Under the pieces are notes generated by a model. It saw only the letters and a list, made by a program, of their open reading frames with translations, did not search any database and was not told the origin of the DNA. Shown one piece after another: positions 3,992 through 23,431 of a stretch of DNA of 24,000 nucleotides (position 1 is its first letter; every line of letters starts with the position of its first letter). A program made the position numbers and the translations under genes. Source of the stretch: an uncultured Thalassospiraceae bacterium. GTDB lineage: Bacteria > Pseudomonadota > Alphaproteobacteria > Rhodospirillales > JABHCV01. The stretch is from assembly GCA_964655005.1 (NCBI GenBank), contig CAZZKE010000016.1:1-24000 (forward strand), in the 5' to 3' direction.

Positions 3992-5794
3992 TCAGCTATT
4001 TTTCCATAACACTTCATAAAGTGTCTGGGGCTTATCGAAACCCTTCATTTCAAACTCGCCGCGGCTCTGGAAGGCCAGTTTTTTCCCATCGCAGAGGGCG
4101 CGCACTATTTCGGAAACGAATATCTCGTCCTTGCTCGATTTATCGACAATGCGGGCCGCCAACTGTACTGTCGATCCGAACAGATCGTTGTCCTCGGCGA
4201 TCGGCTCGCCGGCGTTGATGCCTATCTTTATATGCAGCGGCAGGTCGGGATTGTTCAGGTTGTGAGTAGCGACGCTCTGCTGCATGGAAATAGCCGCTTC
4301 GACACCGCTGGAGACGGCGGAAAATGATGCCATGATGCCATCGCCGGTGTGCTTGATTTCCTTGCCGGCAAAATCGGTCAATGCATCCCGCACCAGGCGA
4401 TTGTGGGCCCGGACAATCTGCTGGGCGACGGCGTCGCCCAGTTCCTGGGTCATCGCGGTCGAACCGACGATGTCGGTAAACAGTACGGTCACGGGACCGG
4501 AATATTCATCCTTGGGCTTCGGTTTGTTCCATTCGGCCAGGCCTCGTTCCAGGTACTTAACGGCATCCGGATCGTCATCCAGGTTCATGTTCATGGCGTT
4601 GCGACCGGCCTGAAACATTTGCATATAGCGGGAATCGGCCAGCAGATAATCTTCATATTTGTCGGCAAATTTAACCGCTTCGGATTTCTTGAATCCAATT
4701 ATGCTAACCGTCTCGCTCAGGATTATCGAAGCCGAGCGGATGTCAAGCATGGTTTTCTGCCCCAAGGCCTCGATGGCCCCGGCAAGATACAGATTAATGC
4801 CGAATTTATTGAAACTGTCGAACCGGGAGGCGTCGGCGTGCATTGTCTCCAGGCTGTCGCTAAGAAATTTCATCAGCGCCAGTCGTTGTTTTTCGGCATG
4901 GGGCGGCAAACCGGCCTGATCGTCGGGTTCGCTTTCGGGCGCCGCGACAGGTTCCGGCTCCGGTTCGATGGGAATTTCGGGTATTGCCAGATCAATTTGC
5001 TCGGGTATTTCCGGCGGCTCCGGCAGTGCCGCCTCGGCGGTGGGATATTCCGGGGAACCGGATTGGTCGGCGGCGGAAGTCAGGGCTTCCGGTGACGGCG
5101 GGGCGCCGGGTATGCTGGCCTCAAGCGGTGCGGTGTCCGGCGCCTTTGGCGGGGGTGGTTTTTTTTCGGCATCCCGGTGCCGCTTAGGCGTCGGACGGCG
5201 CCTGCCGCCGGAGCGGGACGAAGTCGCCAGATTTTCTTTTTTCAGGAAACTCAGCGACATGACGACGGTGCTTAGCAGGAATGCCAACACGAAAACAACG
5301 AACACAATGTTGCTTTGCATATTGTGGTTGAAAGACGTATCGCGCAAAAAAACTATGGAACCGAAGGCCAGCAAGCCGGCGATGGTGACGCCGAACAAGA
5401 TGATCAGGAGTATTTTTACCAGGGTTGAAGTGAAGGTTTGCGGCTTGCCCGGTCCGGCTTTCTTTTTTTCTTCGCCGTAATCGCCGAACAGTGATAAATC
5501 GATTTCGTCGCCGCTTCCCCGGAAGCTTCTGTTGCGTCTTAATCGGCGACCCGCCGCCGATATGGAAGCGGCATGTTTTTTCTTTCCTTTAGGCGAACGG
5601 TAAACGACCGTTTCTACGGATTCGCCGATTTCGGGATCATAGGTGTCGCGGACCACCTTAACCTCGTCGACCGACGGCAAAATATCTAGTGTCTTGGCTT
5701 CTTCGGTCGCCGCCGCAGAGTCTTCGTGACGGGCGTGGATCTCCCACCGGCCTTTCTGATAGACATGAACTTCAAAATTTACCTGCCGGCCCAC
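3992..5794 (-). CDS. Membrane-anchored class III adenylate/guanylate cyclase: novel N-terminal domain, 2 TM helices, Pro/Glu-rich linker, helical domain, CHD catalytic domain
   Basis: ORF 3992..5818. The C-terminus is a clear class III cyclase: VTVLFTDIVGSTAMTQELGD...IKHTGDGIMASF...IKIGINAGEPIAEDNDLFGSTVQLAARI...MKGF. I prefer the GTG start at 5794 because GGAGGA (complement of 5801-5806) lies 6 nt upstream, whereas ATG 5818 has no SD. TM helices: LVKILLIILFGVTIAGLLAFGSIVFL and IVFVVFVLAFLLSTVVMSLSFL. Confidence 0.88.
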   Translation of the reverse strand: MGRQVNFEVHVYQKGRWEIHARHEDSAAATEEAKTLDILPSVDEVKVVRDTYDPEIGESVETVVYRSPKGKKKHAASISAAGRRLRRNRSFRGSGDEIDLSLFGDYGEEKKKAGPGKPQTFTSTLVKILLIILFGVTIAGLLAFGSIVFLRDTSFNHNMQSNIVFVVFVLAFLLSTVVMSLSFLKKENLATSSRSGGRRRPTPKRHRDAEKKPPPPKAPDTAPLEASIPGAPPSPEALTSAADQSGSPEYPTAEAALPEPPEIPEQIDLAIPEIPIEPEPEPVAAPESEPDDQAGLPPHAEKQRLALMKFLSDSLETMHADASRFDSFNKFGINLYLAGAIEALGQKTMLDIRSASIILSETVSIIGFKKSEAVKFADKYEDYLLADSRYMQMFQAGRNAMNMNLDDDPDAVKYLERGLAEWNKPKPKDEYSGPVTVLFTDIVGSTAMTQELGDAVAQQIVRAHNRLVRDALTDFAGKEIKHTGDGIMASFSAVSSGVEAAISMQQSVATHNLNNPDLPLHIKIGINAGEPIAEDNDLFGSTVQLAARIVDKSSKDEIFVSEIVRALCDGKKLAFQSRGEFEMKGFDKPQTLYEVLWKNS

Positions 5795-5901
5795 CTTGGC
5801 TCCTCCGGGGAAACGCATTCGATCCGAGTCGGCAGAATCCTAGACCATATCCGGATTGATGGAAACCGGTCTGACGGAGCCGGTCAGGATCGCGGAACAG
5901 G

Positions 5902-6438
5902 CTACTTTTTCTTGGTATTGAGAAACATGATCGCCATTGGTATGGCGGCCATCACGAATGTCACCAGGAAGGTGATGGTCATGATATTGATTCTGGCGTT
6001 TTTGGCGATTGTGGTTTCCGCAGTGACCATGGAAACGAACCAGGTGAACAAACCGCCGACGATGGCGCTGAACACGCTAATCGCCAGAATTCGCCAGATC
6101 AAGGCGGTGAATGTGGGGCTTTGCTGCGGCTTGCCGGCGGATCGGGTTTTGGATGCCGCGCCGGAATCATCTTTGGCGGTGGCCGATTTTCTTGCCGACG
6201 GCCTGGCCGGGGGGCGGTATTTTTGCTGCCCGGGCGCATAGACGTTGTATTCCTTCGAGGTGCCATCGTCCAGATCATAGATTTCCTGGATGACCTTGAC
6301 CGATTCTACGTGCTTCTGGCCATCGAGGTTTTTGGCCTCCTCGATGGCTGCCTCTTTTTCGGTTGCCGTATAGCGGGCATGGATTTCCCATCGCCCCTTA
6401 TGCTTTACGTGCACCTCGTAATGGGTAGTATGAGCCAT
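5902..6438 (-). CDS. Membrane protein of unknown function; paralog of the N-terminal ~210 aa of the adjacent cyclase
   Basis: 178-aa ORF. HYEVHVKHKGRWEIHARY...IEEAKNLD...VESVKVIQEIYD..DGTSKEYNVY aligns with NFEVHVYQKGRWEIHARH...TEEAKTLD...VDEVKVVRDTYD..IGESVETVVY of the cyclase. Both continue with a basic linker, GKPQ, and two hydrophobic helices. Confidence 0.75.
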   Translation of the reverse strand: MAHTTHYEVHVKHKGRWEIHARYTATEKEAAIEEAKNLDGQKHVESVKVIQEIYDLDDGTSKEYNVYAPGQQKYRPPARPSARKSATAKDDSGAASKTRSAGKPQQSPTFTALIWRILAISVFSAIVGGLFTWFVSMVTAETTIAKNARINIMTITFLVTFVMAAIPMAIMFLNTKKK

Positions 6439-6850: not shown

Positions 6851-7183
6851 ATGACAATCGATGAAAGCAAATTTAATGGCCTTGCCGAGGCGACCCTGAA
6901 TCATTTGTTCGACGTTATAGACGACAAACTCGGCGATCTGCTGGAAGTCGATATGGAAAATGGCATGTTGACCATAGCGTCCGAAACGGGTGGCCAGTAT
7001 ATCATCAACAGGCACGGGCCGAACCGGCAAATCTGGCTGTCATCGCCGCTTAGCGGCGCGTCGCACTATGATTTCGACGATACCGGCCAGGCCTGGGTCG
7101 ACAGCCGCAGCGGGGAACGTCTGCTGCCCAAGCTGGCGGACGAACTGTCGCGCCTGACCGGGGCCTCGTTCATTCTCGATTGA
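6851..7183 (+). CDS. cyaY: Frataxin homolog CyaY (iron-sulfur cluster assembly)
   Basis: 110-aa ORF with F..LAE.TL..L.D.ID......EVD...G.LTI....GGQYIINRHGPNRQIWLSSPLSGASHYDF, the classic CyaY/frataxin pattern. Confidence 0.9.
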   Translation: MTIDESKFNGLAEATLNHLFDVIDDKLGDLLEVDMENGMLTIASETGGQYIINRHGPNRQIWLSSPLSGASHYDFDDTGQAWVDSRSGERLLPKLADELSRLTGASFILD

Positions 7184-8336
7184 GCGCCCACAGGCTTAAG
7201 GCGACTACTATCAGCATCACCGCCGCGCCGGCGAAATAGGGCCAGTCCATGCCCAGTACCGCAAACAGCATTCCGGCCCAAATCGGACCAACGACCCGCG
7301 CCAGGGTCGTTGCCGAGCGGCTGACGCCCATAATGCCGCCTTGTTCTTCGGGGCCAACCTGGAGCGATATCAGGCTGTTCATGGCCGGATTTATGACCGA
7401 AAATCCATAGGCGATAATCGCCATGGCGACCAGCAGCGCCGCCACTGAATTGGCAAAGGGGATCGCCAGCATACCGACCGCCAGCGCGACGGCGCCCTGA
7501 ACGATCAGGTTTGCCTCGCCGAATCGCTTGGCCAGCCGCCCGACCAGGCCACCCTGGATAATCGCGCTCAGGATGCCGATGAAGGCGAACAGATAGCCGT
7601 TCTGTTGCGGCCCCCAGTCAAATCGGCGCTCAGACCACATGGCAAAGGTGGTTTCCATGCCGCCGAAGACGAAGGTGGCGAGGAATGATAAGGCGATAAT
7701 AAGCCCCACATTGGGCCGGGCCAGGGCGTTTCTAAACTGCCGCGCACGGCTCGCCCGGGGCTTTTCCGACATGTTGCGCCGCAGGTTTTCAGACAATGAT
7801 TCCCGCAGCATGAAAACCGCTATCAGAAAAGCCGACAGCGACAATCCGGCGGCGGCGAGGGACGGCAGCCGGAAATCGGCATTCAGGGGGTCGGGACCCG
7901 CCAGAATGCCGCCGATGGCCGGCCCGGCTATAAAGCCAAGGCCGAACGCGGCGCCGATCATGCCCATGCCTTTGGCCCGGTTTTCCGCCGTCGTAATATC
8001 GGCGACATAGGCAAACGCGGTGGAAATATTCCCGGCCATGAAGCCGCCTAGCGCACGGGCCAGAAACAGCATCCACAGGCTATCGGAATAGCCCAACAGG
8101 ACATACGATACGGCCCCCCCGGCGAGGGTAATCAGCAAAATTGGCCGGCGACCGAGACGATCGCTGGTGCGCCCCCAGAACGGCGCGGCGATGAACTGGC
8201 CCAACGAATAGGTCGCCATCAGCAGGCCGACGGTCGATGGCGAGGCGGCAAAATGTTCGGCGAAAAACGGCAGCAGGGGAATAATTACCCCGAAGCCGAC
8301 AAGATCGACAAAAACGATCAGAAAAAGGATAGGCAT
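7170..8336 (-). CDS. MFS transporter, DHA1/Tet-like 12-TM family
   Basis: 388-aa hydrophobic ORF. MFS signature after TM2: GRTSDRLGRRPILLITL. The N-terminus FVDLVGFGVIIPLLPFF is typical of TCR/Tet-type MFS. It lies 44 bp downstream of the MotB-like gene on the same strand. Its 3' end overlaps convergent cyaY by 14 nt. Confidence 0.88.
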   Translation of the reverse strand: MPILFLIVFVDLVGFGVIIPLLPFFAEHFAASPSTVGLLMATYSLGQFIAAPFWGRTSDRLGRRPILLITLAGGAVSYVLLGYSDSLWMLFLARALGGFMAGNISTAFAYVADITTAENRAKGMGMIGAAFGLGFIAGPAIGGILAGPDPLNADFRLPSLAAAGLSLSAFLIAVFMLRESLSENLRRNMSEKPRASRARQFRNALARPNVGLIIALSFLATFVFGGMETTFAMWSERRFDWGPQQNGYLFAFIGILSAIIQGGLVGRLAKRFGEANLIVQGAVALAVGMLAIPFANSVAALLVAMAIIAYGFSVINPAMNSLISLQVGPEEQGGIMGVSRSATTLARVVGPIWAGMLFAVLGMDWPYFAGAAVMLIVVALSLWALNRE

Positions 8337-8380: not shown

Positions 8381-9574
8381 TCAGCGTTGGGTAAATTTAA
8401 GTTCGATTCGGCGGTTGCGGCGGTTGGCGATTTCATCATGGGCCGTATCGATCGGCTGATACTGGCCGAAACCGGCGGCCGCCAGCCGGTTGGCGGGGAT
8501 GTTCTGGTGGGTCAGGAACTTGACCACCGAAATGGCGCGGGCCGCCGATAATTCCCAGTTCGACGGGAATTTCAAATTGAAGATCGGCACGCTGTCGGTG
8601 TGGCCGTCGATCCGCAAAATCCAGTTGATGTCGGCGGGAATTTTTTTCATCAGCTCGCGCAGCGTACCGGCAAGCCGTACCAGTTGCTCCTTTCCGACCT
8701 CGCCGAGATCGGCCGAACCGGATGTGAACAGGACTTCCGACTGAAATACGAAGCGGTCGCCGACGATCCGAATACCCGGCCGATTGCCGAGGACTTTGCG
8801 CAGCCGACCGAAAAATTCGGAGCGATAACGGGATAATTCCTGGACCTTGGAGGCCAGCGCCGAGTTAAGGCGTTTGCCGAGCGCCGATATCTGCACACCC
8901 TGTTCCTTGGCCTTGCGTTCCGAGGCATCGAGGGCATCGGCCAGGCCGGCCAGTTGATCGCGCAGCGCCGCCATTTGCTTGTTGGCCAGCGCGATTTGGG
9001 CTCGCGCGCTTTCCGAGATTTTTCGTTCCTTGACGATCTGCTTGTCCTTGCCGGCGAGTTTGGTCGTCATCTCGCCTATCCTGCTTTCCAGGTCTTCGCG
9101 CAGGGCGGTCAGGGCGTCGATGTCCTCGCTCAATTTCACCAACTCGGCAATCTTGGCGGCGATGGTTTGCTTGTTGACGTCGATGGTCTTGAAAGCGTCA
9201 TCCAGTTTGAGGCTCAGGTTCTGCGCCAGGGTTTCGGCGGCCCGGGATTTTTCGGTCATCACCCGCAGCGACGCATTGAGGTCGTCGCGCATGATGACGG
9301 AAGCTTGCAATTCCTCGGTTATCTTGGCGAAGTCCGTCTGCAAACGATTGTTGGCCTTGCGTTCCAGGGCCAGCAGTTCGCCCATCTCGGAAATCTGGCT
9401 GTTCAGCCGGTCCAGCGCCTGATCCCGTCCCGACAGGGCGTCACTAAGAAAGAACTGGGCCATCACGAAAATCATCAGCAGGAAGATGATAACCATCAGC
9501 AGCGTCGCCAGGGCATCGACGAAGCCGGGCCAGATATTGGTGTTGTGATGCGAACGCCGGGCGAGGGAGGACAT
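8381..9574 (-). CDS. MotB-like stator B subunit: N-terminal TM with conserved Asp, ~200-aa coiled coil, C-terminal OmpA/peptidoglycan-binding domain
   Basis: 397 aa. NIWPGFVDALATLLMVIIFLLMIF resembles the MotB/ExbD-type TM with a protonatable Asp (D20). Residues ~45-260 are heptad-rich and Leu/Glu/Lys/Ala-rich. The C-terminus is OmpA-like: F.SGSADL...IDGHTD..P......SNWELSAARAISVVKFL...GFG...P.....E.ANRRNRRIEL. Confidence 0.85.
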   Translation of the reverse strand: MSSLARRSHHNTNIWPGFVDALATLLMVIIFLLMIFVMAQFFLSDALSGRDQALDRLNSQISEMGELLALERKANNRLQTDFAKITEELQASVIMRDDLNASLRVMTEKSRAAETLAQNLSLKLDDAFKTIDVNKQTIAAKIAELVKLSEDIDALTALREDLESRIGEMTTKLAGKDKQIVKERKISESARAQIALANKQMAALRDQLAGLADALDASERKAKEQGVQISALGKRLNSALASKVQELSRYRSEFFGRLRKVLGNRPGIRIVGDRFVFQSEVLFTSGSADLGEVGKEQLVRLAGTLRELMKKIPADINWILRIDGHTDSVPIFNLKFPSNWELSAARAISVVKFLTHQNIPANRLAAAGFGQYQPIDTAHDEIANRRNRRIELKFTQR

Positions 9575-9585
9575 GCGCCGCCGCC

Positions 9586-10725
9586 CTACGGCGTGTCTTT
9601 GCTGGCGGCGATGGTCCTGGCCAGCAACTTGATCTCGCTGCGAAGCTGCGAAATCAGGTCTTCCCGCCCGGTGCTGACTTCTTCGACCAGACGGGCCATA
9701 TAGATATCAAGATTGCGCAGATGCACACGGCTCGCCTCGTCCAGGCCACCACTGTCATGGCCGCCGACTTCAGCCAGGCGCGCCAGGATGGGTTTCATTT
9801 CGACCTGGCTTTCCGCCAGCTTCATCATCAGCGCCTGTTCGGTATGCATGTGGTCGGTCAGGGTGCTCAGCTTGTCGCCCAGGGCAATCAGGTTGTTGTT
9901 TGCCGATATGCGGCTTTCCTCGCCCCGGGTCAGGGTCCGTTGCAGGCTTTCAAGGCTTTCCGCAGTTTGCTCCAGCAGCGCCTGGACATATGCCGGGACC
10001 GATTGGTCGGTTTCCGTTCCGGCCAGCGCCCCGCTCGACAGCCGGGTCAGGCTGGATAGCCATTCTTCCAGATCGTTGTAAAAGCGGTTCAGCGCCTGGC
10101 CGGCCTGTAAATCCAGGAATCCCAACACCAGGGAGCCGGCGAGACCGAACAGGGATGATGAAAATGCCGTACCCATGCCGCTCAACGGGGCCTCTAGCCC
10201 GGTTTTCAGATCGGCGAACACCGCCGACATATCGCCCTTTACGCTAAGGCCGGATATCACGCCGCTGATCGACGATACGGTTTCCAGTAATCCCCAAAAA
10301 GTGCCAAGCAGACCCAGGAATATGAGTAAACCGATGGTGTAGCGAGACAAATCACGGGATTCATCGAGTCTGGAATAGATGCCATCGAGCAAAGAGCGCA
10401 TGGACAGGGTCGACAGGCTCAACTGGTCGCGGTTGCGTTCGCCCAGCATGGTCGCCATGGGGGCCAGTAGGCGAGGGGCCCGGTGCTGGACGGCGGACTG
10501 ATTGTTCTGGCGGAAGGATTCGATCCACGACACTTCCGGATGCAGCATCAGCACCTGCCGAAAATTATAGATCACGCCCAACAGCAGCACGCCGACAATT
10601 AACCCGTTCAATGGTGCGTTCGACAGGAAAGCGCCCCGCAGCGGTTCGAAGATAAACGCCGTGGCGGCGGTCACGGCGACCAGGAACACCAGCATTCTAA
10701 GCAGGAAGCGACGCGGATTGGTCAT
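9586..10725 (-). CDS. MotA/TolQ/ExbB-family proton-channel protein with ~170-aa C-terminal helical tail
   Basis: 379 aa. Four hydrophobic segments. The channel core YTIGLLIFLGLLGTFWGLLETV ... PLSGMGTAFSSSLFGLAGSLVLGFL resembles the MotA/ExbB signature. After residue ~210 there is a long Leu/Glu/Ser-rich predicted helical region. The gaps to both neighbouring genes are 10-11 nt. Confidence 0.8.
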   Translation of the reverse strand: MTNPRRFLLRMLVFLVAVTAATAFIFEPLRGAFLSNAPLNGLIVGVLLLGVIYNFRQVLMLHPEVSWIESFRQNNQSAVQHRAPRLLAPMATMLGERNRDQLSLSTLSMRSLLDGIYSRLDESRDLSRYTIGLLIFLGLLGTFWGLLETVSSISGVISGLSVKGDMSAVFADLKTGLEAPLSGMGTAFSSSLFGLAGSLVLGFLDLQAGQALNRFYNDLEEWLSSLTRLSSGALAGTETDQSVPAYVQALLEQTAESLESLQRTLTRGEESRISANNNLIALGDKLSTLTDHMHTEQALMMKLAESQVEMKPILARLAEVGGHDSGGLDEASRVHLRNLDIYMARLVEEVSTGREDLISQLRSEIKLLARTIAASKDTP

Positions 10726-10735
10726 GGTCCCGGAC

Positions 10736-11704
10736 CTATCGTTCAGTAATGTTCAGATCGACCCGGTTAAGCGGTTTCTGGTCGGTTTTGTTGCCAAGCG
10801 CACGGACATCTATACGGGTGCTGCGGATGCCGTTTTCGATCAGGAAGGAACGCACCGACAGCGCCCTGGAAAGGGACAACCGCCGCGCCAGGCTGGCCGA
10901 AAGCTTGTCGCCGCCGGCGTAAGCCATCAATTGCAAACGCAGGTTGTCCTTTGATTTAAGCCTGCTGGCCAGGGATTTAAGCTTGTTTTTCGCATCGGTC
11001 GGAAGCCGCGTCGCGTCATTGCTGAAAACGACCTGCATGGCCAGTCCGGGCTCGGTATCGCCACCGGCGGCGTTGGCGGCGGGCAGGGAGGCCTGTTCGG
11101 TTTGCTGTTTTTTCGCCGCCGATACGACCGGCGCCGGCGGTTCGCTCGGGGTCACCTTGGGGGCCGCCGCTATGGTCGGCGGCGGTGGTGCGGATTGAGT
11201 CTGCGTCGTAGCCTCCGGCTTCTTTTTCGGCGGCGCGGACGGCGCCGGGGCCGGGGCTTCCAGCTTCTTCGGCGGCGCGGCGGCGATTATCGGTTTCTTC
11301 GGTGCGGCGGGCGCAACGACCGGGGCCGGGGCGGTCGGTTCGACCCTGACTATGGTTTTTTTCGTTTTCTTCGGCTTCGGCGCCGGGCGTCTTGCCACGG
11401 AACGGGGGGCCGGGGCGGGCCTGGATAATGCGGCGCTGCCGCCGCCAGCCGGCGGCACATGCAGCATGGATGTGGGCGCCCTGGCGCCGGGGATCAGCAA
11501 TTTCAACTGTCTGGTCCGGTTTCCGGCGGGGCCCGGTCCGCCGGGGCCATAGCCGCCGTCATCGATGACGCTCAGGTCAACGGTGACGCTGGGATCATTG
11601 AAGTCCATGTACGGTGAATCCTGGGCGACGGCGACACCAGCCGAACCCGGTATGGCAACGGCGGCGATCAGGGCGCCGAATCGAATAATTGAGAAAGCGT
11701 TCAT
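10736..11704 (-). CDS. Secreted Pro/Ala/Lys-rich protein with C-terminal OmpA-like domain
   Basis: 322 aa. Signal peptide MNAFSIIRFGALIAAVAIPGSAGVAVA/QD. An extended low-complexity spacer of ~150 aa (PAPKPKKTKK...APAAPKKPIIAAAPPKKLEAPAPAPSAPPKKKPE) follows. The C-terminus is a divergent OmpA-like fold: F..DATRL....K..L..LA..L......L.L.AYAG......LARRLSLSRALSVRSFLIENGI...RIDVRALG......NRVDLNI. Confidence 0.72.
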   Translation of the reverse strand: MNAFSIIRFGALIAAVAIPGSAGVAVAQDSPYMDFNDPSVTVDLSVIDDGGYGPGGPGPAGNRTRQLKLLIPGARAPTSMLHVPPAGGGSAALSRPAPAPRSVARRPAPKPKKTKKTIVRVEPTAPAPVVAPAAPKKPIIAAAPPKKLEAPAPAPSAPPKKKPEATTQTQSAPPPPTIAAAPKVTPSEPPAPVVSAAKKQQTEQASLPAANAAGGDTEPGLAMQVVFSNDATRLPTDAKNKLKSLASRLKSKDNLRLQLMAYAGGDKLSASLARRLSLSRALSVRSFLIENGIRSTRIDVRALGNKTDQKPLNRVDLNITER

Positions 11705-11807
11705 GGGCCTACATTATCCCCGTATTTTTCCTCGCGGTCACCAAAATAACCAAGGCCAGCCGGAGGTACAACTGTTTTGCAAATTGGACTGCGGGACTTG
11801 CCGGCAA

Positions 11808-12613: not shown

Positions 12614-13183
12614 TTATTCCTTGGCCCGTTCGACGTAACTGCCGTCGGCGGTGTTGATGACGACGCGGGTGTCGGTTTCGATATGCGGCGGGACCAGGGT
12701 CCTGACGCCGTTTTCCAGCATCGCCGGTTTGTATGACGAAGATGCCGTCTGGCCTTTGACCACGGCGTCCGCTTCGGTGACGGCCAGGACCACGGTATCG
12801 GGAAGCTGCACGCCGATGGGGTCGTCCTGATGGCTTTCAACGGTGACGATCATGGATTCCTGCAGGAACGGAATCTGGTCTTCGCCCAGCATGTCCCTGC
12901 CCAGGGTGATCTGTTCGTAGGTTTCGGTATCCATGAAGGTGTACATGTCGTCGTCGGCGTAAAGATACTGGTAGTCCCGCTGGTCCAGGTGCGCCCGTTC
13001 GACGGACACCGAAGAGCGGAACCGTTCGTTCAGCTTGGTGCCGCTGCGCAGGTCCTTCAGTTCGACCTGCAAATAGGCGCCGCCCTTGCCGGGCTGGGTG
13101 TGCTGGATTTTGACCGCCCGCCACAGGCGACCCTGATGCTCGATGACCATTCCGGGGCGAATGGCATTGCCGTTTATTTTCAT
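12614..13183 (-). CDS. efp: Translation elongation factor P
   Basis: ORF 12614..13210, trimmed to the ATG at 13183: [50 protein letters not shown]... This is canonical EF-P with the tip loop PGKGGA. Confidence 0.95.
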
Positions 13184-13227
13184 GTGACCGGACCGTTGAT
13201 TGATAACCAATGAAGGCGCGGAACCTA

Positions 13228-14278: not shown

Positions 14279-14340
14279 GACCGGGTAGAGATAGAGTGGC
14301 GACCGGTAAATGCCAAGAGCTTTTGAAATCCGCATCGATC

Positions 14341-16500
14341 ATGAACAGGGCCGAACGTCGCCGCCAGAAAAAAATAGCGAACAAGAAGGCCGGCGGCGGC
14401 CTGCTGCAAAAGGCGCTGGCCGATTTTCAGGCCGGAAAATACGACGCGGCGATAAAAAAATGCGGCGCCGTTTTGGCGGCGCAACCGGACAACGCCGACG
14501 CCCACCATCTGACCGGGGTTTGCGCCCATCGTCAGGGCGATTTCGCGGCCGCCGAACGGCATATCGGCGAAGCCGTCGCGGCGGCTCCGGAGCGGGCGGA
14601 TTATCACAATAATCTGGGCCATGTGTACAAGGATACCAGGCGTCCGGAAGAAGCCCTTGCGGCCCATGAAAGCGCCTTGGCATGCGATCCGGCAAGGGTC
14701 GATAGCCATTGCAATCTGGCCCTGATTCTGGATGCGCTTGGCCGTCACGACGAAGCCGCCGGATATTTCGAAAGCGCGCTGGCGCTCGACCCCGATCATA
14801 CGGCGGCGCTGGCCGGTTATGGCAACATGCTGGTAAATCTGAAGCAATTCGACCGGGCCATAAGTTGCCTCCGCCGGGTTATCGAAATCGTCCCCGGCTT
14901 CGCCGGCGGTTACGTCAATCTGGGCAATGCGCTCAAGGATCAGGGGGAACCGGCGGCGGCGATAGAAATATACGGGCTGGCCGTTGATCTTGCCCCGGAA
15001 TTGGTCGAGGCGCATTCGAATATGACCCTGGCGTACGGTATCCTCGGGCGGCTGGACGAAGCCCTGGCGAGTATTGCCAGGACCTTGCGGATCGACCCGG
15101 ACATGGCCCAGGCGTGGCACGATCTGACAAACCTGCTGATCGTCGGAAAATCCTTGCCGGAAGGTATCTGCGACCGGCCACAGGCGGCGGGTAACTGCGC
15201 CCTGCTCGAATTGGCGCTGGCCGCCGAACACGGGTCGCCGGCGGCCCAGGACGCCTTCGCCGGGGCGACGGCGGTGTTGCGGACCGGGTCCGGAAAACCC
15301 GCTTGCGGCATTGACGGCGAATGGCGCGATCCGGTGGCACTGCTTCATTTCGGGCGCAGCGGAAGCGGACTGATACACAGCCTCATAGATAACCATCCGC
15401 AGGTATCTTCACCGCCCAGTATTTATTTGAAAGGCTATTTCGAATCCGGAGTCTGGGAAGAACTGTTTGCGGAAGGGCGGCAAGGACTGCCCGAAAGGTT
15501 CGTCAGGATGTTCGCGGTGCTGTTCGATGCCACCGATCCTTCGCCGGTGCCGGGCCTGATGAACGAGGATAACTCCTCGCTTGGCCTGAAAGAGGGGATG
15601 ACGACCGTCGGTCGGGGGCATGACGAAAAACTGCGGGTCGACCGCGACGTCTTCTGTGCGGCGGCGCATGACATGATCGGGCGATCCGATGGCGTCGATG
15701 CCGGCGGCTTCTTTCGGATCGTGTTTCGGGCCTATGAAGCGGCGCTTGGCAATGACAAGCAAAACCCGCTGCCTTTTTATCATATCCACAATCCGGGATG
15801 GTATGGCCGGGTAAATTTTCTGCGCTGTTTCCCGGAGGCAAGATTGATGATGATGGTTCGCGAACCGGTGCAATCGTGCGAATCATGGATTCGTGAGGAT
15901 TTCAAAAACAATAATTACCCCGCCATCACCGGCAAAATCGCCGCGATGCTGTTTGATGTCGATCGCCCGGAATTCGCCCGGACCGATAACCTGGGCGTCC
16001 GCCTGGAAGATCTGAAAATCAGGCCCGAACAAACCATCGCCGGGTTATGCCGATGGCTGGACATCGAGGAAACCCGGTCACTTTATGAGATGACCGCCCA
16101 GGGCAAGATGTGGTGGGGCGATCCGACCAGCGCCGATTTCGACCGGGAAAAACCCATGCCGCCGTTCGACAGGGCGTCAATTGAACGCCCGGTCGGAATG
16201 ATCTTCAGCGAACGTGATCGGTTCGTGTTGAATACCCTGTATTACCCGTTCCGGGTCAGGTTCGGCTATGCCGGGGCGGACCCGGAGGGGTTCGCCCGCG
16301 ACCTGCAAGCGATCCGCCCGATGCTGGATGGTTTGCTGGATATCGAACGAACGCTGGCCGAACGGGTTGGCCGGGATGAAAAAATTTTCAGGCGGCAGAG
16401 CGACTGCCGGCTGCTGCGGGCGCGAATGAAAAATCGCTGGACCCTGCTCGACCGCCGCGGCGATTACCCGGACATGCTGACGCCACTGTCCCTGACTTAG
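14341..16500 (+). CDS. TPR-repeat protein with C-terminal sulfotransferase-like domain
   Basis: ORF 14296..16500 (GTG). I prefer the ATG at 14341 (MNRAERRRQKK...). At least 7 TPR-like 34-mers occur, e.g. AHHLTGVCAHRQGDFAAAERHIGEAVAAAPERAD and YHNNLGHVYKDTRRPEEALAAHESALACDP. The C-terminal half carries a PAPS-loop-like LLHFGRSGSGLIHSLIDNHPQV and a 3'-phosphate motif-like MMVREPVQSCES. Confidence 0.8.
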   Translation: MNRAERRRQKKIANKKAGGGLLQKALADFQAGKYDAAIKKCGAVLAAQPDNADAHHLTGVCAHRQGDFAAAERHIGEAVAAAPERADYHNNLGHVYKDTRRPEEALAAHESALACDPARVDSHCNLALILDALGRHDEAAGYFESALALDPDHTAALAGYGNMLVNLKQFDRAISCLRRVIEIVPGFAGGYVNLGNALKDQGEPAAAIEIYGLAVDLAPELVEAHSNMTLAYGILGRLDEALASIARTLRIDPDMAQAWHDLTNLLIVGKSLPEGICDRPQAAGNCALLELALAAEHGSPAAQDAFAGATAVLRTGSGKPACGIDGEWRDPVALLHFGRSGSGLIHSLIDNHPQVSSPPSIYLKGYFESGVWEELFAEGRQGLPERFVRMFAVLFDATDPSPVPGLMNEDNSSLGLKEGMTTVGRGHDEKLRVDRDVFCAAAHDMIGRSDGVDAGGFFRIVFRAYEAALGNDKQNPLPFYHIHNPGWYGRVNFLRCFPEARLMMMVREPVQSCESWIREDFKNNNYPAITGKIAAMLFDVDRPEFARTDNLGVRLEDLKIRPEQTIAGLCRWLDIEETRSLYEMTAQGKMWWGDPTSADFDREKPMPPFDRASIERPVGMIFSERDRFVLNTLYYPFRVRFGYAGADPEGFARDLQAIRPMLDGLLDIERTLAERVGRDEKIFRRQSDCRLLRARMKNRWTLLDRRGDYPDMLTPLSLT

Positions 16501-22391: not shown

Positions 22392-23431
22392 TGAACGACC
22401 AGCGCGTCATTACCCCGCAGGATACCGGCGAGGACCAGGCCGACCCGGGACTGCGGCCGCGTACGCTGGCCGATTTCGTCGGTCAGCGGCAGGTTCGGCA
22501 AAACCTGTCGGTGTTCATCCAGGCCTCCCGCTCGCGTGGCGAGGCGCTGGATCATGTCCTGTTTTACGGGCCGCCGGGGCTCGGCAAGACGACGCTGGCG
22601 CACATCGCCGCCAATGAACTGGGGGTCGGTTTCCGCGCCACCTCGGGGCCGGTGATCGCCAAGGCCGGCGACCTGGCGGCGATCCTGACCAATTTGCAGC
22701 CGCGCGATGTGCTGTTTATCGACGAAATCCACCGTCTCAACCCGGTGGTAGAGGAAATTCTCTACCCGGCAATGGAAGATTTTCAGCTTGATCTGATTAT
22801 CGGCGAAGGCCCGGCGGCGCGCTCGGTGCGCATTGATCTGCCGAAGTTTACCCTGATCGGGGCAACCACCCGCTCGGGGCTGTTGACGACGCCGCTGCGC
22901 GAGCGCTTCGGCATTCCCCTGCGGGTGGAATTCTATGAGGCCGATGAACTGCAACGCATCGTCAGCCGGGCGGCCCGCATACTCGATCTGGAAATAACCC
23001 CCGACGGGGCCGCCGAAATCGCCAGGCGGGCGCGCGGCACGCCGCGGGTCGCCGGTCGGCTATTGCGCCGGGTCAGAGATTTCGCGCTCGTCGATGGGGC
23101 GCTTGAAGTCAGCAAGGAAATCGCCGGCCTGGCCCTGAACCGGCTGGAAGTCGATGGCGCCGGGCTCGACGCCATGGACCGCCGCTACCTGAACAGCATC
23201 GCCGAAAATTACGGCGGCGGTCCGGTCGGTGTGGAAACCATGGCCGCCGCCTTGTCCGAGCAGCGCGACACCATCGAAGAGGTCATCGAACCTTACCTGA
23301 TCCAGCAGGGCCTGTTGATGCGCACCCCACGGGGCCGGGCGCTGACGCCAAGGGCCTACGATCATTTGGGCCTGGTCCAGCCGGCCCACCCGACCCAGTT
23401 GGAGCTGGTGGCGGATGGCGCCGATGAATAA
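22391..23431 (+). CDS. ruvB: Holliday junction branch migration DNA helicase RuvB
   Basis: [12 protein letters not shown], Walker [12 protein letters not shown], Walker [10 protein letters not shown], and [17 protein letters not shown] are all present. TGATG start/stop overlap with ruvA. Confidence 0.97.

What the first reader, a model, noticed from the sequence alone, without database searches (positions are those of the whole stretch)
8381..11704. Orphan three-gene MotA/MotB-like stator operon: candidate uncharacterised ion-driven envelope machine
Three minus-strand genes are separated by only 10-11 nt. The first is a secreted Pro/Ala/Lys-rich protein ending in an OmpA-like domain. The second is a MotA/TolQ/ExbB-type channel protein. 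The third is a MotB-type protein with the conserved TM Asp (GFVD20ALATLL) and an OmpA-like peptidoglycan-binding domain. This is the subunit logic of 5:2 ion-driven rotary motors (MotAB, ExbBD-TonB, TolQRA, AglRQS, GldLM, ZorAB). However, no flagellar gene, TonB-dependent receptor, gliding gene or Zorya effector gene is in the window. The canonical ybgC-tolQ operon begins separately at 23415, so this is not the Tol system. The neighbours (suhB, efp and thiE upstream, an MFS transporter 44 bp downstream) are housekeeping genes. That argues for a conserved envelope function rather than a defence island. I do not recognise it as a characterised system.
Basis: partly seen in the sequence, partly recalled or inferred. 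Interest (0 to 1): 0.78.

Follow-up and report, generated by a model that had tools for sequence, protein, structure and literature searches.

The report
Conserved non-flagellar stator-like envelope motor operon
Three adjacent genes encode a proton-channel/peptidoglycan-anchor pair of the flagellar-stator/Tol/Zorya motor type plus a secreted helper; the pair is conserved next to housekeeping genes in at least three orders of Alphaproteobacteria, is not flagellar, and its cellular job is still unknown.

Summary
Three minus-strand genes sit 10 and 11 nt apart:
- P1: signal peptide, Pro/Ala/Lys spacer, OmpA-like end.
- A: 4-TM channel subunit with a helical tail.
- B: TM helix with Asp20, coiled coil, OmpA-type peptidoglycan-binding domain.

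A has a TolQ/ExbB/ZorA/MotA fold. By profile it is closest to ZorA, not to flagellar MotA or TolQ, and it stays far below every curated cut-off. B passes NCBI's own model for this family (PRK09039, "peptidoglycan-binding protein").

- **Conservation:** P1-A-B lies between suhB and an MFS gene in essentially all 80 related genomes fetched. The A-B pair next to suhB also occurs in Sinorhizobium, without P1.
- **New finding:** B's periplasmic stalk is one unbroken coiled coil. Its length varies from 174 to 363 residues almost only in whole heptads.
- **Prior work:** the family is not wholly unstudied. The "MotA/MotB" of the non-flagellated Komagataeibacter hansenii appears to be the same family. 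Changing their dosage alters cell length, colony spreading and cellulose texture.
- **Open:** mechanism and partner remain unknown.

Verdict: a real, distinct variant of the 5:2 ion-driven motor kind.

The parts
10736..11704 (-). P1: secreted accessory protein (322 aa). [quoted passage not shown]
   Evidence: ORF. PF00691 scores 43.3 bits against a cut-off of 27.2. It is found directly upstream of A in 78 of 80 related loci. Composition and motifs were analysed across 66 homologues.
10781..11026 (-). P1 OmpA-like domain (residues 227-308). It is a variant in which AYAG replaces GHTD, so the Asp is lost, while the Arg of LSLSRA is kept.
   Evidence: The best solved relative is YfiB (E 9e-5), and that alignment shows the GHTD-to-AYAG replacement.
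9586..10725 (-). A: channel subunit (379 aa) of MotA/TolQ/ExbB/ZorA type.
   Evidence: Pfam, NCBIfam and PADLOC scans. AF2 model with pLDDT 87.2. In the fold search the top 50 hits are all TolQ/ExbB/ZorA/MotA chains. The family comprises 604 clusters at 50% identity with E<1e-30.
10111..10725 (-). A membrane core (residues 1-205). It has four predicted TM helices: TM3 carries LLGTFWGL with invariant T142, and TM4 carries GMGTAFSSSLFGL.
   Evidence: Invariant columns in the 68-sequence alignment A2. Helices in the AF2 model.
9589..10110 (-). A cytoplasmic helical tail (residues 206-379), ending in the conserved motif SEIKLLARTIAA. The tail is modular, and some relatives carry a duplicated module.
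   Evidence: The profile match to Shewanella ZorA covers TM3, TM4 and the tail (query 131-369).
8381..9574 (-). B: MotB/ZorB-type subunit (397 aa).
   Evidence: NF006543 (PRK09039.1-2) scores 461 bits against a cut-off of 305. ZorB3 E 3e-25. The MotB peptidoglycan-binding domains in the PDB match at E 3e-15.
9515..9517 (-). Codon of B Asp20, the universally conserved ion-binding Asp of the B/axle helix.
   Evidence: It is identical in at least 98% of the 74 aligned B sequences.
8846..9454 (-). B periplasmic coiled-coil stalk (about residues 41-243). It keeps one unbroken heptad register.
   Evidence: The heptad phase is constant across the whole stalk. Across the family, the distance from Asp to the YRSEFF motif is 6 mod 7 in 68 of 72 proteins and in 19 of 22 distinct lengths. 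Weak matches to SMC and coiled-coil models.
8411..8731 (-). B OmpA-type peptidoglycan-binding domain (residues 282-388), with the canonical GHTD...NWELS..RA motif.
11713..11741 (-). Promoter-like site just upstream of P1. This is a weak consensus match only.
   Evidence: Three sites were found in the region against 1.8 expected, so the match is not significant. No terminator-like site lies in either intergenic gap or between B and the MFS gene.

Best explanation
**What it is.** The locus encodes a non-flagellar, peptidoglycan-anchored ion-driven motor of the MotAB/TolQR/ExbBD/ZorAB (5:2) kind. It belongs to a distinct clade found in at least three orders of Alphaproteobacteria.

**The parts**
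- **A** would form the ring: four TM helices, with invariant Thr142 in TM3 and Ser-rich TM4 facing the B helix. It carries a roughly 170-residue helical cytoplasmic tail.
- **B** would form the central dimer. Its TM helix carries Asp20. The helix continues without a break into a coiled-coil stalk of about 200 residues, and the protein ends in a canonical OmpA-type peptidoglycan-binding domain.
- **P1** is found in the Rhodospirillales-like lineage of this window. It is a secreted protein with a Pro/Ala/Lys spacer and an OmpA-like end, co-transcribed as an accessory, comparable to the periplasmic MotY that accompanies some stators.

**How it would work (inferred by homology).** Proton flow through Asp20 turns A relative to the wall-anchored B.

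**What it is for.** The output is not flagellar rotation, Tol function or Zorya defence. The apparent orthologues in the non-flagellated Komagataeibacter hansenii alter cell length or chaining, colony spreading and cellulose texture when over-expressed or disrupted. On that basis the most likely role is an envelope or cell-separation-related task.

**Status of each step**
- Shown: gene anatomy, conservation, fold class, invariant residues and stalk register.
- Inferred: 5:2 stoichiometry, rotation, proton coupling and the cellular output.
For: **Anatomy**
- ORFs and gaps.
- Asp20.

**A subunit**
- The AF2 model has pLDDT 87.2.
- Its top 50 PDB fold matches are exclusively TolQ, ExbB, ZorA and MotA chains, with probability about 1. 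The first, poorer model gave a similar list of motor A subunits, with one unrelated hit in the top 50.
- All 68 diverse family members match ZorA1 and ZorA3 profiles, best E 8e-16.
- In NCBIfam 40 of 68 match a ZorA model, 2 match TolQ, and none match MotA, PomA or ExbB.
- The only motor hit in a PDB profile search is Shewanella type I ZorA, E 1e-3, over TM3, TM4 and the tail.
- G138, G141, T142, G145, F188 and G194 are invariant across the family.

**B subunit**
- It passes the curated model NF006543.
- Its C-terminal domain matches the MotB, PomB and TssL peptidoglycan-binding domains.
- The stalk has a single heptad phase over about 29 heptads.
- Stalk lengths across the family are quantised in heptads (chi-square p 4e-18). 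The A tail, used as a control, is not quantised.

**Conservation**
- thiE-efp-suhB-P1-A-B-MFS recurs in most of the 80 genomes fetched, wherever the contigs extend far enough.
- suhB-A-B is also present in S. meliloti.
- The family is large: 604 clusters at E<1e-30.

**Link to K. hansenii MotAB**
- The organism has no flagellum. Its proteins have four TM helices (A) and an OmpA-like end (B) (PMC6570709).
- The published primers encode VTRPTTY, TLYQAF and ...EFRLTDR. These match the family signatures MTRPxxYLxRM, L..AF..N and RRIE[LF]KLTxR.
- Phenotypes are described.
Against: - The window's A protein is below Pfam's gathering score for PF01618 (15.9 against 22.9). It is also far below all ZorA cut-offs (19 against 500).
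- Stoichiometry, rotation and ion coupling are untested. Only monomer models could be made.
- If the stalk is straight it would measure about 22-50 nm. That exceeds the inner-membrane-to-wall distance of about 9 nm quoted for E. coli (PMC11946911). A simple perpendicular 'stator anchored to the wall' geometry therefore does not fit without tilt or folding.
- Orthology with K. hansenii MotAB rests on primer-encoded termini and on descriptions, not on full sequences.
- The K. hansenii data are weak. They are over-expression phenotypes. The reported polar foci include a C-terminal (periplasmic) GFP fusion to MotB, which would not normally fluoresce, so they may be aggregates.
- In S. meliloti the inferred genes SMc03993 and SMc03992 are absent from the lists of essential genes. 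The function is therefore dispensable in the laboratory.
Confidence: 0.7

Rival explanations
1. A Tol/Ton-like energiser. The A-B motor would power an outer-membrane or periplasmic process through a force transducer. The transducer would be either B's own long stalk (a TolR-plus-TolA-like fusion that reaches toward the outer membrane) or P1, whose Pro/Ala/Lys spacer resembles the TonB/TolA linkers.
For: - The fold of A matches TolQ and ExbB as well as any other motor.
- The stalk is far longer than needed to reach the wall.
- P1 has a TonB/TolA-like low-complexity spacer and is co-transcribed.
- Cell chaining on over-expression in K. hansenii resembles Tol phenotypes.
Against: - P1 has a cleavable-type signal peptide rather than a TolA/TonB-type membrane anchor (read from the sequence). 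It is also missing in S. meliloti and in a Stellaceae MAG.
- B ends in a canonical wall-binding domain, not a TonB/TolA-type C-terminal domain.
- P1 spacer length and B stalk length do not co-vary (rho -0.10).
- No outer-membrane receptor is conserved nearby.
Confidence: 0.15
2. A housekeeping relative of Zorya. The complex would sense the state of the envelope or wall through the B stalk and wall-binding domain. It would pass that signal into the cytoplasm through the A tail to an unlinked partner.
For: - ZorA is the closest profile family for all 68 members.
- The match extends into the tail (A 126-307 against ZorA1 107-285).
- The tail is modular, of variable length, and has a conserved tip.
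- A ChvI (envelope-stress regulator) bound fragment lies inside the inferred S. meliloti A gene (PMC3687685).
Against: - The tail is about 170 residues, against about 500 in ZorA, where truncation abolishes function (PMC11946911).
- The tip motif is absent in Rhizobiaceae.
- No effector gene is linked.
- A is predicted to have four TM helices, against three in ZorA.
Confidence: 0.1
3. A genuine flagellar stator paralogue, as many database records call A ('flagellar motor protein MotA').
For: - Source names.
- Four-TM, MotA-like topology.
- B's wall-binding domain is most similar to those of MotD, MotS and MotB.
Against: - No family member matches any MotA or PomA model.
- There are no flagellar genes in the 24 kb window, and the conserved neighbours are housekeeping genes.
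- The family is apparently present in a genus without flagella (PMC6570709).
- S. meliloti has its own flagellar MotA, MotB and MotC elsewhere (established knowledge; PMC9541039 was only listed, not read).
- No flagellar MotB or PomB is known to me (from memory) to carry a coiled coil of about 200 residues.
Confidence: 0.04
4. A new subtype of Zorya-like anti-phage defence.
For: Weak but consistent ZorA and ZorB profile matches.
Against: - Gene order next to suhB, efp and thiE is conserved from Rhodospirillales-like MAGs to Rhizobiaceae. That is the opposite of a mobile defence island.
- No ZorC, ZorD, ZorE, ZorF or ZorG gene is adjacent.
- The tail is short.
- Scores are far below the curated ZorA cut-offs.
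Confidence: 0.03

Closest known systems
Komagataeibacter hansenii 'MotA/MotB' (Jacek et al. 2019, PMC6570709; review PMC7347698)
   Same: - It is a non-flagellar pair of adjacent genes.
- A has four TM helices. B has one TM helix and an OmpA-like end.
- The primer-encoded termini match this family's signatures.
- Acetobacteraceae loci L062 and L065 carry the family.
   Different: - The K. hansenii proteins are shorter (348 and 321 aa).
- Only dosage phenotypes are known (cell length, spreading, cellulose texture). There is no mechanism and no partner.
- It is not known whether a P1 gene is present there.
Zorya ZorA-ZorB (type I structures 8QYD and 8VVN; PMC11946911)
   Same: - It is the closest family by profile for A.
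- A carries a helical cytoplasmic tail after the last TM helix.
- The Thr in the TM helix and the B Asp pair correspond to ZorA T147/S184 and ZorB D26.
- B has an OmpA-type wall-binding domain.
   Different: - The tail is about 170 residues, against about 500.
- A is predicted to have four TM helices, against three.
- B has a roughly 200-residue coiled coil that ZorB lacks.
- There are no ZorC-G effectors.
- The context is fixed and housekeeping, not a defence island.
- Scores are far below the family cut-offs.
Flagellar stators MotAB / PomAB / MotCD
   Same: - A has a four-TM topology.
- B's wall-binding domain is most similar to those of MotD, MotS and MotB.
- A periplasmic OmpA-like accessory (P1) recalls MotY, but the match is very weak (E 3e-4).
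   Different: - There are no matches to MotA or PomA models.
- The cytoplasmic loop between TM2 and TM3 is only about 65 residues.
- There is no flagellar context.
- B carries a long coiled-coil stalk.
TolQ-TolR-TolA / ExbB-ExbD-TonB
   Same: - They are the best structural matches for A.
- They involve a long periplasmic helical element (TolA domain II, from established knowledge) and a Pro-rich spacer (TonB).
   Different: - The canonical ybgC-tolQ operon lies elsewhere in the same window.
- B has an OmpA-type domain, unlike TolR and ExbD.
- There is no membrane-anchored TolA/TonB partner.
Salmonella SiiA-SiiB (accessory motor of the SPI-4 type I secretion system)
   Same: It is a non-flagellar MotAB-like pair in which the B-like subunit has a periplasmic helical dimerisation region before a wall-binding domain. 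This is from memory. SiiAB is listed among the 5:2 motors in PMC12204202.
   Different: - SiiAB is linked to a secretion system and a giant adhesin. There is no such context here.
- The stalk is far longer here.
- No sequence comparison with SiiAB was run.

Membership tests
5:2 ion-driven motor superfamily (MotAB/TolQR/ExbBD/ZorAB) | The A subunit has the TolQ/ExbB/MotA/ZorA fold. | tested here: met
AF2 model with pLDDT 87.2. The top 50 PDB fold hits are all A subunits of these motors, with probability about 1 and TM-score (target) of 0.4-0.57.
5:2 ion-driven motor superfamily (MotAB/TolQR/ExbBD/ZorAB) | The A subunit reaches Pfam PF01618 (MotA_ExbB) gathering score. | tested here: not met
   The window protein scores 15.9 bits against a cut-off of 22.9. 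Of 68 diverse relatives, 33 match at E<1e-3.
5:2 ion-driven motor superfamily (MotAB/TolQR/ExbBD/ZorAB) | The B subunit has a single N-terminal TM helix with an invariant Asp, and is encoded next to A. | tested here: met
   WPGFVD20A. The Asp is identical in at least 98% of 74 sequences. A-B adjacency holds in all loci that have downstream DNA.
5:2 ion-driven motor superfamily (MotAB/TolQR/ExbBD/ZorAB) | Polar residues in the last two TM helices of A face the Asp. | tested here: inconclusive
   T142 is invariant, and S189 and S191 are at least 90% conserved. Their position relative to Asp20 could not be modelled, because only a monomer could be predicted.
5:2 ion-driven motor superfamily (MotAB/TolQR/ExbBD/ZorAB) | A5B2 stoichiometry and ion-driven rotation. 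| not testable with these tools
   No multimer prediction or experiment was available.
Flagellar stator (MotAB/PomAB) | Match to curated MotA or PomA models. | tested here: not met
   None of the 68 family members, the window protein included, matches any MotA or PomA NCBIfam model at E<0.01.
Flagellar stator (MotAB/PomAB) | Flagellar genomic context, or dependence on a flagellum. | tested here: not met
   The neighbours are suhB, efp, thiE and an MFS gene. The apparent orthologues occur in flagellum-less Komagataeibacter.
Flagellar stator (MotAB/PomAB) | A torque-generating cytoplasmic domain that contacts FliG. | not tested
   The loop between TM2 and TM3 is only about 65 residues. No structural comparison of this region was made.
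Zorya ZorAB | ZorA and ZorB family models reached at their curated cut-offs. | tested here: not met
   antiphage_ZorA_4 scores 19.4 bits against a cut-off of 500. The PADLOC ZorA1 match (E 2e-13) is partial.
Zorya ZorAB | A long ZorA tail (about 500 residues), required for function. | tested here: not met
   The tail spans residues 206-379, about 174 residues. The ZorA tail spans 223-729 (PMC11946911).
Zorya ZorAB | Linked effector genes (ZorC/D, ZorE, ZorF/G) and a variable defence-island context. | tested here: not met
   The flanking genes are housekeeping genes, and their order is conserved across orders.
Tol-Pal (TolQRA) | Match to TolQ and TolR equivalog models, and location in the ybgC-tolQRAB-pal operon. 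| tested here: not met
   Only 2 of 68 members match TolQ, and weakly. A separate ybgC-tolQ operon starts at 23415.
NCBIfam PRK09039 'peptidoglycan-binding protein' (NF006543) | The whole-protein score is above the curated cut-off. | tested here: met
   B scores 461.4 bits against a cut-off of 305, covering residues 3-397.
OmpA-like peptidoglycan-binding domain (PF00691) | The domain model is reached, and the Asp and Arg that bind diaminopimelate are present. | tested here: met
   This row is for B. It scores 54.9 bits and carries GHTD...NWELSAARA.
OmpA-like peptidoglycan-binding domain (PF00691) | The same feature, tested for P1. | tested here: inconclusive
   The domain model is reached (43.3 bits). 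However, GHTD is replaced by AYAG, so the Asp is lost, while the Arg of LSLSRA is kept.
K. hansenii MotAB (Jacek et al.) | The same sequence family (termini, topology, domain order). | tested here: inconclusive
   The primer-encoded VTRPTTY, TLYQAF, MARRSR and EFRLTDR fit the family signatures.

The most novel reading that the evidence does not exclude
This could be a housekeeping sister of the Zorya motor, conserved in Alphaproteobacteria. In it, the B dimer would act as a rigid, register-locked periplasmic shaft 22-50 nm long. The heptad-exact length changes suggest that the angular relation between the ion-binding Asp and the distal wall-binding head must be preserved. On this reading the shaft transmits torque or a rotational signal along the periplasm, or holds A's rotation in a fixed phase. 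It would couple proton flow to wall or envelope organisation at poles or septa, or report envelope state through the A tail. That would be a new output class for 5:2 motors.
Probability: 0.2. Interest if true: 0.85.

Novelty: new variant of a known kind. Interest (0 to 1): 0.6.

Why it matters
- **A distinct output.** Ion-driven 5:2 motors are known to power flagella, Tol and Ton transport, gliding, type IX secretion and Zorya defence. Each newly understood clade has revealed a new way of spending proton-motive force in the envelope.
- **Widespread but unexplained.** This clade is conserved in gene order from Rhodospirillales-like bacteria to Rhizobiaceae. It is widely mis-annotated as "flagellar motor protein MotA" and has no known partner or mechanism.
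- **Link to Zorya.** Its closest profile relative is the anti-phage ZorA. It may therefore show what Zorya-type motors were doing before they were recruited for defence.
- **A testable handle.** The heptad-quantised stalk of B gives a sharp structural hypothesis: insert or delete 3, 4 or 7 residues and see what happens.
- **Practical use.** The genes already serve as handles for tuning bacterial cellulose texture, so knowing what they do has applied value.

Tried and rejected
- **Sequence searches of the PDB with A.** The protein alone and the shallow profile A1 returned only coiled-coil noise. The diverse profile A2 added a single motor hit, ZorA.
- **First AF2 model.** It used a shallow alignment of 35 sequences and was poor (pLDDT 61). 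It was replaced by a model from 68 diverse sequences.
- **Literature searches for a named system.**
  - Searches on stator-like terms, ZorAB-like terms, phylogenies of 5:2 motors and Tn-seq essential genes gave nothing specific.
  - The survey by Puente-Lelievre et al. (2025) groups non-flagellar homologues only generically and excludes ZorAB.
- **S. meliloti Rgs growth-zone proteins.** None of them is of MotA or OmpA type.
- **Rhodospirillum PapS as an identity for P1.** Rejected: PapS is a lipoprotein with a different N-terminal domain.
- **P1 as a duplicate of B's wall-binding domain.** Rejected: there is no significant similarity.
- **P1 spacer and B stalk as matched rulers.** Rejected: their lengths do not correlate.
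- **Heptad quantisation of the A tail.** Absent, which makes it a useful control.
- **Third large protein search, with a diverse profile.** It did not broaden the taxa listed. Presence in Caulobacterales, Rhodobacterales, Sphingomonadales and Rickettsiales was therefore not established. One Holosporales member was seen.
- **S. meliloti Tn-seq supplements.** They gave the locus tags of the neighbours but no entry for SMc03993 or SMc03992.

Full report
**1. Observation**

The window holds three minus-strand ORFs at exactly the stated coordinates:
- P1, 10736-11704 (322 aa)
- A, 9586-10725 (379 aa)
- B, 8381-9574 (397 aa)

The gaps between them are 10 and 11 nt.
- SuhB, EF-P and ThiE lie upstream, and a TetA-like MFS transporter starts 44 nt downstream.
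- A separate ybgC gene starts at 23415 (TIGR02799, above its cut-off), followed by the start of tolQ.
- No terminator-like site separates the three genes or separates B from the MFS gene. The one promoter-like site upstream of P1 is no better than chance.

**2. The three proteins**

*P1*
- It has a signal-peptide-like N-terminus, a short conserved motif (VTVDLSVI) and a long Pro/Ala/Lys-rich spacer.
- It ends in an OmpA-like domain (PF00691, 43.3 bits).
- Across 66 homologues, the GHTD motif of that domain is replaced by AYAG, so the diaminopimelate-binding Asp is lost. The Arg of LSLSRA is kept. Wall binding by P1 is therefore uncertain.
- P1 is not a recent copy of B's domain.

*A*
- It scores below Pfam's cut-off for MotA_ExbB (15.9 against 22.9 bits).
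- It gives no significant match to solved structures by plain sequence search.
- A model built from 68 diverse relatives is confident (pLDDT 87.2, pTM 0.64). Its 50 best PDB matches are exclusively TolQ, ExbB, ZorA and MotA chains. A first, poorer model gave a similar list of motor A subunits, with one unrelated hit in the top 50. No single motor family stands out structurally.
- By profile the picture is sharper.
  - All 68 relatives match PADLOC ZorA1 and ZorA3 models.
  - In NCBIfam, which also holds MotA, PomA, TolQ and ExbB models, 40 of 68 match a ZorA model, 2 match TolQ, and none match MotA, PomA or ExbB.
  - The only motor found by a family profile in the PDB is Shewanella type I ZorA, aligned over TM3, TM4 and the tail.
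  - All these scores are far below the curated cut-offs, so A is a relative of ZorA, not a member of that family.
- A has four predicted TM helices with a cytoplasmic N-terminus. ZorA has three (PMC11946911).
- T142 in LLGTFWGL (TM3) is invariant, and TM4 is Ser-rich.
- The helical tail is about 170 residues. It is modular: some relatives have a duplicated module or a Pro-rich extension. In most lineages it ends in ELRSEIKLLARTIAA, but not in Rhizobiaceae.

*B*
- It passes NCBI's curated model for exactly this family (NF006543, PRK09039.1-2 "peptidoglycan-binding protein", 461 bits against 305).
- Asp20 in WPGFVDA is identical in at least 98% of the 74 aligned sequences.
- The C-terminal domain is a canonical OmpA/MotB-type wall-binding domain.

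**3. A new feature: the stalk of B**

Between the TM helix and the wall-binding module lies a coiled coil.
- In the window protein, the best heptad phase is the same in 25 of 28 overlapping 28-residue windows. It holds from residue about 41 to about 243, roughly 29 heptads, with no proline and no register shift.
- Across 72 B proteins, the distance from the Asp to the conserved YRSEFF motif ranges from 174 to 363 residues.
  - It equals 6 modulo 7 in 68 of the 72 proteins.
  - It equals 6 modulo 7 in 19 of the 22 distinct lengths (chi-square p about 4e-18).
- The A tail, analysed the same way, shows no such quantisation.

The stalk is therefore one continuous coiled coil whose length evolves in whole heptads. 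This preserves the register between the ion-binding helix and the wall-binding head.

If straight, the stalk would measure about 22-50 nm. That is much longer than the roughly 9 nm between inner membrane and wall quoted for E. coli. Either the stalk is tilted or folded, or the head binds far from the motor. I cannot tell which.

**4. Conservation**

- A scan of one genome per species returned 561 confirmed relatives. The best 80 loci were kept; A in these is 61-88% identical to the window protein. They are mostly Rhodospirillales-like MAGs: Thalassospiraceae, Rhodospirillaceae, Magnetovibrio, Acetobacteraceae and Stellaceae.
- P1 is found upstream of A in 78 of the 80 loci. One of the other two lacks upstream DNA, and one, the Stellaceae MAG L075, truly lacks P1.
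- B follows A wherever the contig continues.
- The order thiE-efp-suhB-P1-A-B-MFS is kept in most loci.
- In S. meliloti the order is thiE-sel1-suhB-A-B, with no P1.
- A search of 1.8 billion representative proteins finds 604 clusters at E<1e-30, one of them from Holosporales.
- The A-B pair is thus ancient and found in at least three orders of Alphaproteobacteria. P1 and the MFS neighbour are lineage-specific.

**5. What is known**

- No paper found in the library treats the family as a system.
- In S. meliloti 1021 the neighbours are thiE2 (smc03996), smc03995 and suhB (smc03994). A and B should therefore be SMc03993 and SMc03992.
  - They are absent from the lists of essential genes.
  - Their only mention is a ChvI-bound DNA fragment inside SMc03993.
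- The closest experimental work is on Komagataeibacter hansenii, which has no flagellum.
  - Its only motility-like genes are an adjacent "motA" (348 aa, four TM helices) and "motB" (321 aa, OmpA-like end).
  - The published primers encode VTRPTTY and TLYQAF for MotA, and MARRSR and ...EFRLTDR for MotB. These fit this family's signatures: MTRPxxYLxRM, with an exact match in family member P0128; L..AF..N; and RRIE[LF]KLTxR.
  - I therefore infer that it is the same family.
  - Over-expression gave longer, chained cells, threefold wider colony spreading and looser cellulose. GFP fusions formed polar foci. Disruptants are viable and make denser cellulose.
  - These data are weak. They rest on dosage effects, and the C-terminal GFP on MotB would sit in the periplasm, where it would not normally fluoresce.
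  - The authors state that the partner is unknown.

**6. Most likely mechanism**

By homology, A forms a ring around a B dimer. Protons pass via Asp20 and the polar residues of A's TM3 and TM4 and drive A relative to B. B is fixed to the wall through its OmpA-type head at the end of a register-locked coiled-coil stalk.

- Shown: anatomy, fold class, invariant residues, stalk register and conservation.
- Inferred: 5:2 stoichiometry, rotation and proton coupling.

The output is unknown. Context and profiles rule out the flagellar, Tol and Zorya-defence roles. The Komagataeibacter phenotypes point loosely to cell separation or envelope organisation.

Three alternatives remain open:
- a Tol/Ton-like energiser that uses the stalk or P1 as a transducer;
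- a Zorya-like sensor that signals through the A tail;
- with low probability, a flagellar or defence role.

**7. Verdict**

- The conserved unit is the A-B pair; P1 is a lineage-specific accessory.
- The family already has a curated NCBI model for B and a little phenotypic literature under a misleading name.
- It is best described as a new variant of the 5:2 motor kind. It combines a ZorA-like channel subunit carrying a short tail with a MotB/ZorB-like subunit carrying a long, heptad-quantised stalk.

Noticed in passing
L076:8134-9082: One related genome has an insertion of about 950 bp between A and B. It carries a 289-aa ORF on the opposite strand whose sequence looked to me like an IS-type transposase, though no family search was run. 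The insertion splits the otherwise tight A-B pair.
   Followed up: partly
L018:8180-10489: The B ORF reads through to 769 aa, apparently fused to the downstream MFS gene. This could be a frameshift, an assembly error or a real fusion.
   Followed up: no
window 7170-8336 (-): A TetA-like MFS efflux gene (below the NCBIfam cut-offs) starts 44 nt after B, with no terminator-like site between them. It follows B in most Rhodospirillales-like loci but not in S. meliloti, so it may be co-transcribed with the operon.
   Followed up: partly
L081:3337-4482 (S. meliloti; smc03995 in strain 1021): In S. meliloti a secreted sel1-repeat protein sits between thiE2 and suhB. It was scored essential by Tn-seq, and its function is unknown; diCenzo et al. 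tentatively guessed a thiamine-phosphate kinase. No counterpart is present in the window.
   Followed up: no
S. meliloti 1021 chromosome 2991422-2991677 (inside SMc03993, the inferred A gene): A DNA fragment bound by the envelope-stress response regulator ChvI in a gel-shift screen lies inside this gene (PMC3687685). This may hint at regulation by envelope stress.
   Followed up: no
proteins P0121, P0441, P0442, P0172, P0180, P0122 (relatives of A): Some A homologues are 557-614 aa long. They have either a duplicated or multiply repeated tail module or a roughly 190-residue Pro-rich C-terminal extension. The tail is therefore expandable, as in ZorA.
   Followed up: partly
window 12614-13210 (-): The efp ORF as listed starts at a TTG. 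In most related loci the tblastn match begins at residue 10 of the window protein, so the true start is probably the ATG at codon 10 (MKINGN...).
   Followed up: no
window 14296-16500 (+): A 734-aa protein combines N-terminal TPR repeats with a sulfotransferase domain (PF13469).
   Followed up: no
window 3992-5818 (-): A 608-aa protein has a C-terminal adenylate/guanylate cyclase domain. The adjacent 178-aa ORF (5902-6438) has no Pfam match.
   Followed up: no
window 8954-9703 (+) and others: Long antisense ORFs (up to 249 aa) overlap A, B and P1. They are typical of GC-rich DNA and are not supported as genes.
   Followed up: no
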